In this document: in pieces, positions 4,001 to 12,703 of the stretch
How the letters are laid out: each line of letters starts with the position of its first letter
Position numbering within the stretch: position 1 is the first letter of the stretch
Source of the DNA: Escherichia coli
GTDB taxonomy: Bacteria > Pseudomonadota > Gammaproteobacteria > Enterobacterales > Enterobacteriaceae
Strand: one strand, 5' to 3'
Length of the DNA: 64,000 nt
Assembly (NCBI RefSeq): GCF_045037415.1
Contig: NZ_CP173438.1
Made by a program: the position numbers

Positions 4001-7000
4001 GCGGGCGTGGGGCTGGGGTTGAATCTGCCTCTCGGGCCATTAATGGCGACCGTTGGCGGAAAAGGCGTTTACACCAACCCGAACGATGGTGATGAAGGTT
4101 ATGCAGCGGCAGTTGGCGGTGGTTTGCAGTGGCAAATTGGTGACAGCTTCCGCTTGTTTGGTGAGTATTACTACTCTCCGGATTCGCTCTCCAGCGGAAT
4201 TAAAAGTTATGAAGAAGCGAATGCTGGCGCGCGTTACACCATTATGCGTCCAGTCAGCATTGAGGCTGGCTACCGTTACCTGAACCTGGCAGGTAAAAAT
4301 GGCAATCGTGATAACGCCATTGCTGATGGTCCGTATGTTGGGGTAAATGCCAGCTTCTGACGCCTTCCGGCGCGGCGTTCTGTCGCGCCATTCAGTTTCT
4401 TACTACGCCCTGTCTCCCTTTGCGTTATAGTGATTCGATAACAAAAGCAGGAGATAACCATGTTAAAAGTGGAAATGTTATCCACCGGGGATGAAGTGTT
4501 ACACGGGCAAATCGTTGACACTAACGCTGCCTGGCTGGCCGATTTTTTCTTTCATCAGGGGCTGCCATTATCTCGCCGCAATACGGTGGGGGATAACCTT
4601 GATGACTTAGTCACCATTCTTCGCGAACGTAGTCAGCACGCCGATGTGTTGATCGTTAACGGCGGGCTGGGACCGACCAGTGATGATTTAAGCGCACTCG
4701 CCGCTGCGACAGCAAAAGGTGAAGGCCTGGTGCTGCATGAAGCCTGGCTCAAAGAGATGGAACGCTATTTCCATGAACGGGGACGAGTAATGGCACCGAG
4801 CAACCGTAAACAAGCGGAGCTGCCTGCCAGTGCTGAATTTATCAATAACCCGGTAGGCACTGCCTGTGGTTTTGCCATACAGCTTAATCGTTGCCTGATG
4901 TTCTTTACCCCCGGCGTACCGTCAGAATTTAAGGTGATGGTCGAGCACGAAATCCTGCCGCGCCTGCGCGAGCGTTTTTCTTTACCACAGCCGCCGGTTT
5001 GCCTGCGTTTGACTACCTTTGGTCGTTCGGAAAGCGATCTGGCACAAAGCCTGGACACTCTACAACTGCCGCCGGGCGTAACAATGGGCTATCGCTCCTC
5101 AATGCCGATTATCGAACTGAAACTCACCGGACCGGCAAGCGAGGAACAGGCGATGGAAAAACTGTGGCTGGACGTTAAACGTGTTGCCGGACAGAGCGTG
5201 ATTTTCGAAGGCACCGAAGGACTGCCCGCGCAGATCAGTCGCGAATTGCAGAGCCGCCAGTTCAGCCTGACGCTGAGCGAGCAATTCACCGGTGGTTTAT
5301 TGGCTTTGCAACTTTCTCGCGCAGGTGCTCCATTGCTGGCGTGTGAAGTGGTTCCTTCACAGGAGGAAACCCTGGCGCAAACTGCGCACTGGATTACAGA
5401 ACGGCGGGCGAACCATTTTGCTGGGTTGGCACTGGCTGTTTCTGGTCTGGAAGATGAGCATCTCAACTTTGCACTAGCCACGCCAGACGGCACTTTCGCT
5501 TTGCGTGTACATTTCAGTGCCACACGCTACAGTCTGGCTATTCGCCAGGAAGTGTGCGCAATGATGGCGCTTAATATGCTACGCCGTTGGTTAAACGGCC
5601 AGGACATCGCCAGCGAGCATGGCTGGATTGAGGTTGTTGAGTCCATGACCTTATCTGTCTGATTCCGCCACTCTGTGCCGGTTTACTGCACCGGCACATT
5701 CCCCCTCCGGCAAAATTTGTCCAACCTGTTGTACTCAATAAGAAAAAATCCGTGCGCTGATTCACAAATTTGTGCGTAATTTCTCCAGTCCGCTGGACGA
5801 GAAACGGGATTTGATGCGCTTCACAATTTTACTCCCCCTGAACAACGAGACTGATTCCAGTATCTAAGACTGGAGTCCAGTATGTTGGAATCAAGCAAAG
5901 TTCCCGCCCTGACACGGGCTATTGATATTCTCAATTTGATTGCCCGGATTGGCCCCTGTAGTGCTGCGACGATCATTGACACATTGGGGATCCCTAAAAG
6001 CACAGCCTATTTGCTGCTTAATGAACTCAGGCGTCAGCGTTTTCTTAGCCTTGATCACCAGGAAAATTTTTGTTTGTGGACCAGGCTGGTGGAGCTTTCC
6101 GGTCATGCGTTAAGCAAGATGGATCTCCGGGAACTGGCTCGACCGCGTTTGACGCAACTGATGGATACCACCGGGCTGTTATGTCACCTGGGGATTATTG
6201 ATAACGGCAGCGCTTATTACATTTTGAAAGTGGAGTCATCAGCCACTATCAGCGTGCGTTCCCATGAAGGAAAAAGCCTTTCGCTTTATCGCTCCGGAAT
6301 AGGTAAATGCCTGCTTGCCTGGCAACCTGCAGCTGTACAGCAAAGTATTATCGAAGGGCTGGTCTGGGAACGGGCGACACCCACAACGATTACTCATCCA
6401 CAACGGCTCTACGAAGAACTGGCGCGTATTCGCCGCCAGGGCTGGAGCTATGACAACGGCGAAGATTACGCCGATGTCCGTTGTGTCGCTGCGCCGGTGT
6501 TTAACGCCAATAACGAGCTTACCGCTGCGATTTCGGTGGTCGGTACCCGCTTACAAATCAATGAAGAATACCGTGATTATCTGGCGGGCAAGGCCATTGC
6601 CTGTGCCAGGGATATTTCACGTTTGTTGGGATGGAAAAGTCCCTTTGACTTACAGGCCTCATAACAATGGAGAACATCATGACCCTACCAAAAATCAAAC
6701 AGGTTCGCGCCTGGTTTACTGGCGGTGCGACAGCAGAAAAAGGCGCTGGCGGCGGTGATTATCACGACCAGGGGGCGAATCACTGGATTGATGATCATAT
6801 TGCCACCCCGATGAGTAAATACCGCGAATACGAGCAGTCCCGCCAGTCATTTGGCATTAACGTTCTTGGCACGTTGATTGTTGAAGTTGAAGCAGAAAAC
6901 GGCCAGACCGGATTCGCTGTTTCGACAGCCGGTGAAATGGGCTGTTTTATTGTCGAAAAACATCTTAACCGTTTCATTGAGGGTAAATGCGTCAGTGATA

Positions 7001-10000: not shown

Positions 10001-12703
10001 GCGATGTTTAAATCAGGCAAAAATGGGCCACGCGTAAAAGGTAGTTATTGATATCAAAGGCCCATGGGGATCGGCTGTGGGCCTGTGTTAATTAGTGGTT
10101 ATTCGCTGCCAGATCGGCTTCGCTTAGCTGAGTGGCCGCGAGCACCTGATCACGATCAATGCCCTGTTCCAGCATGCGCAAAGCAATTTTAATGGCTTGT
10201 TCATGCATGCCTTCCTGCAAACCTTCTAATTTACCTTCTTGCCAGCCTTCAATCTTACCCTCCTGCCAGCCAATTTGATGTCCTTCCTGCCGTAGCCGTT
10301 CAGCAATAGTCATCAATCTCTCCTTTTAATGACAGTTCGGAATATCAGCATCAGTGAGTTGGGTTGCCGCCAGCACAATCTCACGTTCAAAGCCCTGCTC
10401 CAGCATGCGCAAGGCAATTTTAATGGCTTGCTCATGCATGCCTTCCTGCAAACCTTCTAATTTACCTTTCTGCAAACCCTCCAATTTACCTTGCTGCAAA
10501 CCTTCTAATTTACCTTCTTGCCAGCCTTCAATTTTACCTTCTTGCCAGCCAATTTGATGTCCTTCCTGCCGTAGCCGTTCAGCAATAGTCATTAATCTCT
10601 CCTTTTGTAGTGGTGAACGTTCGGCAATCTCCTGAATAAAGCGGGTGAAACGGGAGGTATCGCCGCATTGCAGCAGATAATTAAACAGTGTTTGTAGCTG
10701 GCTGTCATTAGTGAAGTCTCTAACCAAAAGCGTGGTGATCCTGTCGACCATACCGATTAAATCGCGGTCGCGAATATGCTTTTGAATCAGTTCCAGCAGA
10801 GCTATACGCCGATGTTGCATGATCTCATCGTCAGGTACGATGGTGATATCCACCAACGGAAAAGCTTCGGTGTACAACTGCCGGGCAAGTTGCGGATCGT
10901 CAAACTCATCCAGCCAGTTGAGTGAGTACGGGTAGGGCGAGGCTTCGCCATGATAAAACAGCAATGGCACCACCAGCGGAACTCTGTCATAGCCTTTATC
11001 CAGGTGACGCTGCATGGCGGCAGTGGCATAGCGCATTAGCCGAAAAGCCATATTCTTTTCTGCAGAGCTTTGATGTTCAATCACGCAGTAGATATAGCCG
11101 TCACCCTCGCTGGTTTCCACGGACCACAAAACATCCGAGTAGTAAGCGCGTAAACTTTTTTCAATAAAACTGGTGGGTTCCAGGCGTAAGGTTTGCAGGT
11201 TGCAAAGCTTGCGCAGCGGCTCTGGTAGATGTATTTCCAGAAAATCCCGTGCGGTTTCGGGTGTGAACATAAAGGTTTTAAACACCGCATCATGCGGGGA
11301 GGAGGTTGTTGATTCGGTCATGGTTGTCCGTCACCTGATATTTATGATGACGCGACATTACGGTTATCCCAGGCCTTTGATATCTGCCAGTTTCAGCCTT
11401 TGCGAGACGTTTTCAGAGGAATTTTCACTGCGTTGCAACGCATACATTGGGCACGGAATCGTGTACGCAAAAATGCCCGGTAACAACATGCTTACCGGGC
11501 ATCAGAAAGGAGTTTAAGCCAACGCCTGTGCCAGCAGCGTAATCGGATGTTCGCAGCGAAGACTTGTGGACATCTCAATCTGCCATTTGCAGGTTTCGCA
11601 GTCGGTGACCACCAGATCTGCGCCGCTCTCTTCTATCTGGCGGAACAGTGGTGCGCCGATGGCTTGTGAAGTGGGGTAGTTCTCTTTTTTGAAACCGTAA
11701 GTTCCCGCAATACCGCAGCACTGGGAATCCAGCACCGTTAACTCAAGCCCCGGGATTTTACGCAACAGCTCCAGGGTGTAGAGCGTCCAGCCCATTTTTT
11801 CCATATGGCACGGAGTGTGATAAACCACTTTCAGCGGCAGCGGTTTCAGCGGTAACGTTTTGCCTTCGTCCAGCTTGCGCCACAGCCAGCGGGTCGCCAG
11901 TTCGATATGATCGCGCAAGCCTTTGTTGTCGACATTCAGCACTTCTGGGTATTCGTCGCGCAGGGCAAATGTACACGTTGAGGAGGTGGCAATCACCGGA
12001 ATGCCTTTTACTCCCACAGCTTCGCGGATCGACTCTACATTCGTAATTGCCTGTTTGCGTGCTTTATCGGTAAAACCGTTGGCGATCAGCGGTACGCCGC
12101 AGCATTTTTCTTTACTGAGCAGTTGTACGCCGGTATCCATCGCGTTGAGCACTTTAATTAAATCTTTGCCTAGTTGCGGATGGTTGTAGTTAACGAAGCA
12201 GCCGTGAAAGAAAGCGACCTGGTCTTTATACTGCGCTTGCTGAGCCGCCACGCTGCGATACCAGCGACGGAACGTGCCGAAGGAGTATTTCGGTAGCGTG
12301 CGGCGATGATCGATTTTTAACGCCGCATCAAGCAGCTGACGCACCGGTTTCAGCGAGGTAGCGGTGTTGACGATGGGTGCGAACGGCGTGGATACGCTAC
12401 CCATCAGGTCGGTATGACTCAACACAAAATTACGCAGCGACGGGCGCGTGGTGTCATATTTCGCCCGCGCGCGCTGGATAATATCGCCAATCTTCACATC
12501 GGACGGGCAGGCGACTTCACAACGTTTGCAGTTGATGCAATATTTCAGCGCCTCGTCATACAGTGCGCCATCTTTCAAACGCAGACGCTCGCCATCCGGC
12601 CCGGCTTGTTTTGGCCCCGGATAACCCGGATTCACCCGGCTCACCGGGCAGGCGGTGGTGCAGACGGTGCACTTAATGCAGTTTTCGAAGCTGGTGTCGT
12701 TCA

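What the first reader, a model, noticed from the sequence alone, without database searches (positions are those of the whole stretch)
5882..10051. Compact regulator-dehydratase-transporter-aldolase cassette (rhmRDTA) beside the rpnE/ypaA pair
The four rhm genes are separated by 14 to 56 bp and form a self-contained sugar-acid catabolic module that sits directly upstream of the nuclease/repeat locus. Modules like this are often strain-variable and the junction with rpnE/ypaA (only 40 bp between convergent rhmA and ypaA stops) may be a recombination-prone boundary.
Basis: inference. Interest (0 to 1): 0.2.

Follow-up and report, generated by a model that had tools for sequence, protein, structure and literature searches.

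The report
Known rhmRDTA L-rhamnonate operon, strain-variable
This is the already characterised E. coli operon for breaking down the sugar acid L-rhamnonate; it is old and fixed in place across related genera, but about 29% of complete E. coli genomes have lost its dehydratase gene through three separate deletions, none of which ends at the neighbouring rpnE gene.

Summary
Four intact, same-strand genes lie at 5882-10051: rhmR (IclR regulator), rhmD (L-rhamnonate dehydratase), rhmT (MFS transporter) and rhmA (2-keto-3-deoxy-L-rhamnonate aldolase). The gaps are 14, 56 and 17 bp, and 40 bp separate rhmA from the convergent ypaA-like ORF. This is the known E. coli rhmRDTA (yfaXWVU) operon, and both enzymes have solved structures.

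It is not a recently acquired island. The order yfaZ-yfaY-rhmRDTA-glpC is conserved across Escherichia, Citrobacter, Klebsiella, Raoultella, Kosakonia and others. Synonymous divergence matches the flanks, rhmD dN/dS is about 0.01-0.02, and GC and codon usage are ordinary.

It is variable within E. coli. Of 5426 complete genomes:
- 3825 keep at least 80% of the region.
- 1239 share one 3863-bp deletion (including the B1 reference IAI1).
- 188 carry an IS200/IS605 replacement (including strain 042).
- 144 share a 1733-bp deletion.
- One carries a fimbrial operon instead.

No breakpoint lies at the rhmA/ypaA junction, and three of four left ends fall within 84 bp next to yfaY. Across genera, rpnE is the variable element at the rhmA/glpC junction. 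The finding is ordinary and already known, with modest added population detail.

The parts
5674..5698 (+). Hairpin after the yfaY stop codon (5660-5662); likely the yfaY terminator. It lies in the zone where three rearrangement left ends cluster (5643, 5655, 5726).
   Evidence: The fold is -15.4 kcal/mol with z = -4.66.
5719..5734 (.). Conserved imperfect palindrome GTCCAAC-CT-GTTGTAC, a candidate operator. The left breakpoint of the 3863-bp deletion (5726|5727) falls at its centre.
   Evidence: It is near-invariant in 20 Enterobacteriaceae intergenic regions. The perfect form GTACAAC-N2-GTTGTAC occurs in Cedecea and Prodigiosinella, with looser GTACA..TGTAC variants in Mangrovibacter, Pantoea and Brenneria. 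It occurs once in the 64-kb window against 0.02 expected.
5751..5766 (.). CRP-like site 1 (CGTGC-N6-TCACA)
   Evidence: The columns are conserved across genera. yfaX is listed among CRP genomic-SELEX targets (PMC3105977). Assigning this site to CRP is inference.
5784..5797 (.). Perfect palindrome TCCAG-TCCG-CTGGA, a candidate RhmR (IclR-type) box
   Evidence: The pattern TCCAG-N4-YTGGA occurs in the window only here and at 5876, against 0.17 expected. The TCCA..TGGA arms are conserved.
5810..5825 (.). CRP-like site 2 (TTTGA-N6-TCACA)
   Evidence: TGA-N6-TCACA is conserved in the cross-genus alignment. Assignment to CRP is inference.
5852..5892 (+). Highly conserved leader with inverted repeats (TGATTCCAGTAT...GTATGTTGGAATCA, including TCCAGTATGTTGGA at 5876-5889). 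It covers the Shine-Dalgarno sequence GGAG and the rhmR ATG. It is either a candidate autoregulatory operator or an RNA hairpin that sequesters the ribosome-binding site.
   Evidence: The region is almost invariant in 20 genera. Rahnella and Budvicia homologues carry ATTCCA-N6-TGGAA(T/A) at their start codons, with TTCCAG-N4-TTGGAA palindromes further upstream in Rahnella. The RNA fold is -15.5 kcal/mol with z = -2.4.
5882..6664 (+). rhmR (yfaX), an IclR-family transcriptional regulator of 260 aa
   Evidence: Pfam HTH_IclR and IclR_C; RefSeq annotation
6679..7884 (+). rhmD (yfaW), L-rhamnonate dehydratase of 401 aa, enolase superfamily
   Evidence: NCBIfam NF011968 at 821.6 bits against a cut-off of 393. 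396 of 401 residues are identical to PDB 2I5Q.
7941..9230 (+). rhmT (yfaV), an MFS transporter of 429 aa in the anion:cation symporter family; presumed L-rhamnonate/H+ symporter
   Evidence: Pfam MFS_1. TIGR00893 scores 247 bits, below its cut-off of 395. Its substrate has not been established experimentally (bioRxiv 10.64898/2026.05.20.726482).
9248..10051 (+). rhmA (yfaU), 2-keto-3-deoxy-L-rhamnonate aldolase of 267 aa
   Evidence: NCBIfam NF007521 at 595.3 bits against a cut-off of 441. PDB 2VWS (YfaU) matches at 587 bits over residues 1-267.
10058..10084 (.). Hairpin with a 10-bp stem in the 40-bp spacer between convergent rhmA and the ypaA-like ORF; likely a terminator
   Evidence: Terminator scan. 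The fold is -17.9 kcal/mol with z = -2.6. In genera without rpnE, an equivalent single hairpin lies between rhmA and glpC.
10092..10325 (-). ypaA-like pseudogene fragment, a tandem duplicate of the C-terminal module of rpnE
   Evidence: It matches positions 243-308 of the RpnE-type profile NF007418. It is 73% identical in DNA to the rpnE 3' end, and the peptide is repeated.
10326..11321 (-). rpnE (yfaD), an Rpn-family nuclease-like gene of 331 aa. It is a neighbour of the operon, not part of it.
   Evidence: NF007418 at 716 bits. Across genera it is present or absent at the rhmA/glpC junction.
5727..9589 (.). Interval missing in 1239 of 5426 complete E. coli genomes. A single shared junction (AACC|CTCCC, 2-bp microhomology) removes rhmR, rhmD, rhmT and the first 114 codons of rhmA.
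   Evidence: IAI1
6370..8102 (.). Interval missing in 144 genomes (6-bp microhomology). It removes the rhmR 3' end, all of rhmD and the rhmT 5' end.
5656..8002 (.). Interval replaced by a 1.75-kb IS200/IS605-family element (partial tnpA plus tnpB) in 188 genomes, including strain 042

Best explanation
This is the chromosomal rhmRDTA (yfaXWVU) operon of E. coli, a known four-gene pathway for a 6-deoxy sugar acid.

Proposed mechanism:
- RhmT, an anion:cation-symporter MFS protein, imports L-rhamnonate. This step is inferred.
- RhmD, a Mg2+-dependent enolase-superfamily dehydratase, converts L-rhamnonate to 2-keto-3-deoxy-L-rhamnonate. This activity is established for the near-identical enzyme.
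- RhmA, a class II HpcH-type aldolase, splits that product into pyruvate and L-lactaldehyde. This activity is also established.
- RhmR, an IclR-type regulator encoded as the first gene, presumably controls one promoter in the 219-bp yfaY-rhmR spacer. That spacer carries two CRP-like sites and several TCCA-N6-TGGA-type palindromes, one of which overlaps the rhmR start codon. The regulatory model is inferred from phylogenetic footprints.

Evolutionary status:
- The operon is ancestral at this chromosomal site in Enterobacteriaceae and is under strong purifying selection.
- Within E. coli, rhmD has been removed at least three times by lineage-shared illegitimate deletions or IS-associated replacement. 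It is therefore a core-in-family, accessory-in-species module.
- The neighbouring rpnE is a separate, variably present gene. No evidence links it to these losses.
For: - Gene identities.
- Operon layout and coordinates.
- Conserved synteny yfaZ-yfaY-rhmRDTA-glpC in more than 25 species representatives of Enterobacteriaceae.
- Selection: rhmD dN is 0.009-0.033 with dS 0.55-2.8, and the dS values are comparable to yfaY and glpC.
- Composition: cassette GC is 0.524 against 0.511 for the window, and GC3 and codon-usage distance fall within the window's range.
- Population counts: 3825 genomes keep at least 80% of the region, 1239 have the 3863-bp deletion, 188 the IS200/IS605 replacement, 144 the 1733-bp deletion and 1 the fimbrial replacement.
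- Breakpoints.
- Conserved upstream motifs.
- Published support: CRP genomic-SELEX lists yfaX as a target (PMC3105977), and the operon is named rhmRDTA in the literature (PMC6206212).
Against: [quoted passage not shown]
- L-rhamnonate is listed as a dead-end metabolite in EcoCyc, with no known source or uptake reaction (PMC3781023). The physiological substrate and inducer are therefore unproven.
- No sigma-70 consensus promoter was found in 5600-10400, so the promoter is not located.
- RhmR binding sites are predictions only.
- The count of 3825 full-length genomes includes copies disrupted by IS elements (IS1 and IS1203 in rhmT).
Confidence: 0.9

Rival explanations
1. The cassette is a horizontally acquired, mobile genomic islet whose insertion or excision is tied to the adjacent rpnE/ypaA nuclease locus. 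This is the reading implied by the first reader.
For: - The R-D-T-A block occurs as a unit in unrelated flanks in Pantoea, Mixta, Gilliamella, Desulfovibrio and Lucifera, and RhmD is 75-84% identical in Actinobacteria and Negativicutes. Both point to old lateral spread of the module.
- E. coli genomes differ in presence and absence.
Against: - Within Enterobacteriaceae the site is fixed between yfaY and glpC, whether or not rpnE is present.
- dS equals that of the flanks, and composition is ordinary.
- No flanking direct or inverted repeats were found. No integrase or other mobility gene is annotated in or flanking the intact cassette. A tRNA scan was not run.
- The E. coli absences are internal deletions that leave an rhmA stump, not clean excisions.
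- No breakpoint lies at rpnE/ypaA.
- rpnE is intact in the deletion genomes.
Confidence: 0.05
2. The operon is real and under selection, but its physiological substrate is not, or not only, L-rhamnonate. Candidates are another 6-deoxy or L-series aldonate met in a particular niche. On this reading, the lineage-specific losses reflect niche differences.
For: - K-12 does not grow on L-rhamnonate, and the RhmT substrate is unassigned.
- L-rhamnonate is a dead-end metabolite in EcoCyc.
- RhmD is under very strong purifying selection across genera (dN/dS about 0.01-0.02), yet rhmD has been lost three times in E. coli lineages.
- From my own recollection of Rakus et al. 2008 (not readable here), RhmD also turns over L-mannonate, L-lyxonate and D-gulonate at lower efficiency.
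Against: - In the published assays L-rhamnonate is the best substrate. This rests on established knowledge and was not retested here.
- The equivalog models and PDB names agree with that assignment.
- The failure to grow could equally reflect lack of induction in K-12.
Confidence: 0.3
3. The clustering of rearrangement left ends at 5643-5727 reflects a fragile site, namely the yfaY terminator hairpin and the protein-bound palindrome, rather than selection on which deletions are tolerated.
For: - Three of four mapped events begin within 84 bp of each other.
- One breakpoint is at the centre of the conserved palindrome 5719-5734.
- The IS200/IS605 family is known to target hairpin-associated single-stranded DNA (established knowledge).
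Against: - There are only four events.
- Deletions that remove the promoter but spare yfaY are constrained to this short zone anyway.
- Microhomologies of 2 and 6 bp fit ordinary illegitimate recombination.
Confidence: 0.2

Closest known systems
E. coli K-12 rhmRDTA / yfaXWVU operon (RhmD PDB 2I5Q; YfaU/RhmA PDB 2VWS)
   Same: The gene order, lengths (260, 401, 429 and 267 aa), spacing and chromosomal neighbours (yfaY, ypaA/rpnE, glpC) are the same. RhmD is identical at 396 of 401 residues to 2I5Q, and RhmA matches 2VWS at 587 bits over its full length.
   Different: There are only allelic differences. In this strain rpnE is 331 aa with a longer 24-bp repeat tract, and the ypaA-like fragment is annotated as a pseudogene.
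Non-phosphorylative L-rhamnose pathway of Azotobacter vinelandii, Sphingomonas and fungi (L-rhamnose dehydrogenase, lactonase, L-rhamnonate dehydratase, KDR aldolase; summarised in PMC3870299)
   Same: The last two steps are the same: L-rhamnonate is dehydrated to 2-keto-3-deoxy-L-rhamnonate, which is then split by an aldolase into pyruvate and L-lactaldehyde.
   Different: The E. coli cassette has no dehydrogenase or lactonase. It starts from imported L-rhamnonate and adds a transporter and an IclR regulator.
Other enterobacterial IclR-controlled sugar-acid modules (yjhIHG/yagEF xylonate genes; Salmonella SL1344_3494-3500, PMC12445098)
   Same: The architecture is the same: an IclR regulator, a dehydratase, an aldolase and an MFS transporter, yielding pyruvate plus an aldehyde.
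   Different: Those modules use different enzyme families, sit in strain-specific regions and have different substrates. rhmRDTA is ancestral and syntenic across Enterobacteriaceae.

Membership tests
L-rhamnonate dehydratase (RhmD; enolase superfamily) | Full-length match to the curated equivalog model above its cut-off | tested here: met
   NF011968 scores 821.6 bits against a cut-off of 393 and covers positions 2-395 of the 395-position profile.
L-rhamnonate dehydratase (RhmD; enolase superfamily) | Enolase-superfamily two-domain fold (MR_MLE N- and C-terminal domains) and near identity to the solved, named enzyme | tested here: met
   Pfam PF02746 and PF13378. 396 of 401 residues are identical to 2I5Q.
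L-rhamnonate dehydratase (RhmD; enolase superfamily) | Catalytic dehydration of L-rhamnonate | not testable with these tools
   This is a biochemical assay. It is inferred from near identity to the characterised protein.
2-keto-3-deoxy-L-rhamnonate aldolase (RhmA/YfaU; HpcH/HpaI class II aldolase) | Equivalog model above its cut-off, HpcH_HpaI domain, and match to the solved YfaU structure | tested here: met
   NF007521 scores 595.3 bits against a cut-off of 441. Pfam PF03328. 2VWS matches at 587 bits over residues 1-267.
IclR-family regulator (RhmR) | N-terminal IclR helix-turn-helix plus C-terminal IclR effector domain | tested here: met
   PF09339 covers residues 9-58 and PF01614 covers residues 75-247. 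No NCBIfam equivalog cut-off is reached; the best is BhcR at 161 bits against 350.
IclR-family regulator (RhmR) | Binds palindromic operators at its own operon and responds to a pathway metabolite | tested here: inconclusive
   Conserved palindromes are present upstream and over the start codon, but there are no binding data. The Gao et al. ChIP-exo paper does not mention YfaX in its main text.
ACS-family MFS sugar-acid symporter (RhmT) | MFS fold and membership of the D-galactonate/ACS transporter subfamily | tested here: inconclusive
   MFS_1 is met at 163 bits. TIGR00893 scores 247 bits, below its cut-off of 395. The literature lists RhmT as one of six E. coli ACS transporters.
ACS-family MFS sugar-acid symporter (RhmT) | Transports L-rhamnonate | not testable with these tools
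   A published attempt failed to assign the substrate.
Genomic island / mobile accessory module | Atypical composition relative to the host | tested here: not met
   GC is 0.524 against 0.511 for the window. GC3 is 0.52-0.57 against a window mean of 0.568 (sd 0.043). Codon-usage distance is within the window's range.
Genomic island / mobile accessory module | Sporadic distribution or variable insertion site among close relatives; flanking repeats, tRNA or integrase | tested here: not met
   The site is the same between yfaY and glpC in more than 25 Enterobacteriaceae species. dS is like that of the flanks. No flanking repeats were found, and no mobility genes are annotated in the intact allele. 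A tRNA scan was not run.

The most novel reading that the evidence does not exclude
rhmRDTA may be a niche-determining locus whose real substrate and role are still unknown.
- RhmD is among the most constrained proteins of the neighbourhood (dN/dS about 0.01-0.02; 75-84% identical even in Bifidobacterium, Actinotignum, Desulfovibrio and Negativicutes).
- Yet three E. coli lineages, together 29% of complete genomes and including the lineage of the B1 reference strain IAI1, independently destroyed it.
- K-12 cannot grow on the textbook substrate.

The recurrent losses, with left ends clustered at the promoter and operator, could reflect selection against the pathway in some habitats rather than neutral decay.
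Probability: 0.2. Interest if true: 0.4.

Novelty: already known. Interest (0 to 1): 0.15.

Why it matters
The operon itself adds nothing new, since its enzymes are textbook members of the enolase and HpcH aldolase superfamilies. What the check adds is mostly useful for annotation.
- The cassette is ancestral in Enterobacteriaceae, not an island.
[quoted passage not shown] About 29% of complete genomes lack rhmD through three fixed rearrangements with simple, PCR-testable junctions that could serve as lineage markers.
- The physiological substrate, inducer and regulation remain unproven. The conserved upstream palindromes and CRP-like sites give concrete targets for testing RhmR.

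Tried and rejected
- **Flanking repeats:** I searched 5500-10400 for direct and inverted repeats that could mark an island or explain the deletions. Only short chance-level matches turned up.
- **Sigma-70 promoter:** the scan found no consensus promoter in 5600-10400, against 4.6 expected. The promoter remains unlocated.
- **Sigma-54 promoter:** a published RpoN genomic-SELEX peak lies between yfaY and yfaX (PMC8743547). No TGGCAC-N5-TTGCW match with up to 3 mismatches lies on the + strand in 5663-5881, and window-wide counts equal chance. I did not adopt it.
- **Rfam:** the scan of 3000-12500 at E <= 1 found nothing.
- **Literature on lineage-specific loss:** no paper holds both 'rhamnonate' and 'phylogroup'. 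The yfaU/V/W/X search found only a genome announcement, and one wider search timed out.
- **Primary enzymology paper:** Rakus et al. 2008 (PMC2562705) is not held. Statements about substrate range rest on my own knowledge.
- **ChIP-exo paper:** Gao et al. 2021 has no YfaX data in its main text.
- **RhmR/RhmA name clash:** the RhmR and RhmA of PMC3870299 are unrelated Chloroflexus rhamnosidase genes.
- **Salmonella:** it did not appear among the 80 loci returned, so its synteny was not examined.
- **Phylogroups:** they were inferred only from named reference strains (IAI1 with the 3863-bp deletion, 042 with the IS variant, and K-12, HS, E2348/69, Nissle, 536 and O157:H7 intact). There was no genome-wide typing.

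Full report
**Observation**

The window is E. coli chromosome. Region 5600-10400 is 100% identical to strain AR_0086. The RefSeq annotation of that record gives the following genes when shifted by +2599 into window coordinates:
- yfaY: 4460-5662, + strand
- rhmR/yfaX: 5882-6664, + strand
- rhmD: 6679-7884, + strand
- rhmT/yfaV: 7941-9230, + strand
- rhmA/yfaU: 9248-10051, + strand
- a pseudogene fragment (ypaA-like): 10092-10325, - strand
- rpnE: 10326-11321, - strand
- glpC: 11514-12704, - strand

The mechanical ORF list agrees with this.

Gene identities are secure:
- RhmD and RhmA pass NCBIfam equivalog cut-offs (821.6 against 393 and 595.3 against 441).
- Pfam finds the IclR HTH and effector domains, MR_MLE_N/C, MFS_1 and HpcH_HpaI.
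- RhmD is identical at 396 of 401 residues to the solved E. coli L-rhamnonate dehydratase 2I5Q.
- RhmA matches the solved YfaU structure 2VWS over its full length.

The literature already calls this the rhmRDTA operon (PMC6206212).

**Is it an island?**

It is not an island. RhmD was used to fetch 80 species-representative loci, and tblastn of the window's proteins onto them gave three results.
- The order yfaZ-yfaY-rhmR-rhmD-rhmT-rhmA-(rpnE)-glpC is found in E. coli, E. albertii, many Citrobacter, Klebsiella (pneumoniae, oxytoca, michiganensis, grimontii, indica, spallanzanii), Raoultella, Kosakonia, Phytobacter, Trabulsiella, Atlantibacter, Intestinirhabdus and others.
- Outside the family (Pantoea, Mixta, Cedecea, Prodigiosinella, Mangrovibacter, Gilliamella, Desulfovibrio, Lucifera) the R-D-T-A block persists but the flanks differ.
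- Actinotignum has D-T-A-R, and Bifidobacterium has D-A-R.

Nei-Gojobori estimates against seven genera show that rhmD has saturated or near-saturated dS (0.55-2.8), like yfaY and glpC, while dN is only 0.009-0.033. Its 95-98% amino-acid identity therefore reflects very strong purifying selection, not recent transfer. GC (0.524 against 0.511 for the window), GC3 and codon usage are unremarkable. No flanking repeats were found.

**Strain variation in E. coli**

The 5426 complete RefSeq genomes sort as follows.
- **Region retained:** 3825 hold at least 80% of 5600-10400. This count includes copies interrupted by IS elements, such as IS1 and IS1203 in rhmT. The literature also reports an mcr-1 insertion in rhmT.
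- **3863-bp deletion:** 1239 genomes carry one identical junction. The deletion joins window 5726 to 9590 across a 2-bp CC microhomology. It removes the promoter region, rhmR, rhmD, rhmT and the first 114 codons of rhmA, leaving a 462-bp rhmA stump annotated as 'aldolase/citrate lyase family protein'. The phylogroup-B1 reference strain IAI1 has this allele.
- **IS200/IS605 replacement:** 188 genomes, including strain 042, have window 5656-8002 replaced by a 1.75-kb IS200/IS605-family element.
- **1733-bp deletion:** 144 genomes, including APEC O2-211, share a deletion of 6370-8102 with 6-bp microhomology.
- **Fimbrial replacement:** one genome (06-00048) has 5644-11523, meaning rhmRDTA plus rpnE, replaced by a 5.4-kb chaperone-usher fimbrial operon.

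These classes sum to 5397 of 5426 genomes. About 29% of complete genomes therefore lack rhmD. K-12, HS, E2348/69, Nissle 1917, 536 and O157:H7 are intact.

**The boundary question**

None of the right ends (9589, 8102, 8002, 11523) is at the rhmA/ypaA junction. Three of the four left ends (5643, 5655, 5726) fall within 84 bp around the yfaY stop codon and terminator hairpin (5674-5698, z = -4.66). With four events this is suggestive only.

Across genera it is rpnE that comes and goes at the rhmA/glpC junction. It is present in Escherichia, C. braakii and C. sedlakii (64-66% amino-acid identity). It is absent from most Citrobacter and from Klebsiella and other genera, where a single GC-rich hairpin of 20-70 bp separates the convergent rhmA and glpC.

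The ypaA-like ORF is a tandem duplicate of the C-terminal module of rpnE, next to 24-bp repeats. Genomes with the 3863-bp deletion carry an undivided 300-aa rpnE.

**Regulatory anatomy (inferred)**

Aligning the yfaY-rhmR spacer of 20 Enterobacteriaceae gives sharp footprints:
- GTCCAAC-CT-GTTGTAC at 5719-5734. The perfect form GTACAAC-N2-GTTGTAC occurs in Cedecea and Prodigiosinella, with looser variants in Mangrovibacter, Pantoea and Brenneria. It is unique in the window.
- Two CRP-like sites, CGTGC-N6-TCACA (5751-5766) and TTTGA-N6-TCACA (5810-5825).
- TCCAG-TCCG-CTGGA at 5784-5797.
- An almost invariant leader, 5852-5892, containing TCCAGT-N7-ACTGGA and TCCAGTATGTTGGA over the rhmR ATG.

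TCCAG-N4-YTGGA occurs nowhere else in the 64 kb, against 0.17 expected. Rahnella and Budvicia homologues carry ATTCCA-N6-TGGAA(T/A) at their own start codons, with further TTCCAG-N4-TTGGAA palindromes upstream in Rahnella.

CRP genomic-SELEX lists yfaX as a target (PMC3105977). A sigma-54 SELEX peak was reported here (PMC8743547), but I found no sigma-54-like sequence and no sigma-70 consensus.

The left breakpoint of the 3863-bp deletion lies at the centre of the first palindrome.

**Function**

The mechanism is uptake by RhmT, dehydration by RhmD, and aldol cleavage by RhmA to pyruvate and L-lactaldehyde. The two enzyme steps are established and the transporter step is presumed.

Two published facts keep the physiology open. 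BW25113 does not grow on L-rhamnonate and the RhmT substrate could not be assigned (bioRxiv 10.64898/2026.05.20.726482). L-rhamnonate is also an EcoCyc dead-end metabolite (PMC3781023).

**Verdict**

This is a correctly described, already known operon. The cassette is an ancient, syntenic resident rather than an island. Interest is low.

Noticed in passing
window 10092-11321: The ypaA-like ORF is a tandem duplicate of the C-terminal module of rpnE (the peptide [24 protein letters not shown]... is repeated). It is flanked by 24-bp repeat arrays at 10210-10271 and 10441-10545. E. coli alleles differ here: an undivided 300-aa rpnE in genomes with the 3863-bp deletion, against 319-331 aa plus a pseudogene fragment elsewhere.
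   Followed up: partly
L011, L016, L022, L026, L028, L032, L075 (about 2400-4700, + strand): In Klebsiella, Kosakonia, Phytobacter, Raoultella terrigena and an Enterobacter sp., which lack rpnE at the rhmA/glpC junction, an Rpn-family paralogue (43-58% aa identity) sits upstream of yfaZ instead. Rpn genes recur around this locus at different positions.
   Followed up: no
L076-L085, L067-L069, L064, L071, L074: RhmD is unusually conserved across phyla: 75-77% amino-acid identity in Bifidobacterium, 81% in Actinotignum, and 84% in Desulfovibrio, Lucifera and Megamonas. This is far higher than for the accompanying regulator (about 30%) or aldolase (47-68%).
   Followed up: partly
L037, L038, L042, L052, L058, L061, L072: Budvicia, Limnobaculum, Leminorella, Enterobacillus and Rahnella have a variant layout. 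An rhmR-like gene (44-51% identity) is followed by about 0.9 kb of unexamined sequence, then rhmD and rhmT, with no rhmA. This may be a different downstream route for 2-keto-3-deoxy-L-rhamnonate.
   Followed up: no
L005 8045-13453 (E. coli 06-00048): A single genome of 5426 carries a four-gene chaperone-usher fimbrial operon in place of rhmRDTA plus rpnE, between the yfaY 3' end and the glpC stop. Its glpC-side flank is only 92% identical to the window.
   Followed up: partly
window 2000-4000: A low-GC stretch (0.39-0.46, against about 0.52 around it) covers the ais 3' end, nudI and the nudI-yfaZ spacer, just upstream of yfaY.
   Followed up: no
window 55075-56196: This 373-aa ORF is the strongest codon-usage outlier in the window (Jensen-Shannon distance 0.22, against a mean of 0.05). 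From the gene order seen in IAI1 it is probably ompC, a highly expressed gene.
   Followed up: no
L019 about 11380-11485 and L017 11379-12640: Citrobacter sp. FP75 has two hairpins and 105 bp between rhmA and glpC but no rpnE, which may be an empty or scarred site. C. amalonaticus S646 has 1.26 kb of unidentified sequence there.
   Followed up: no
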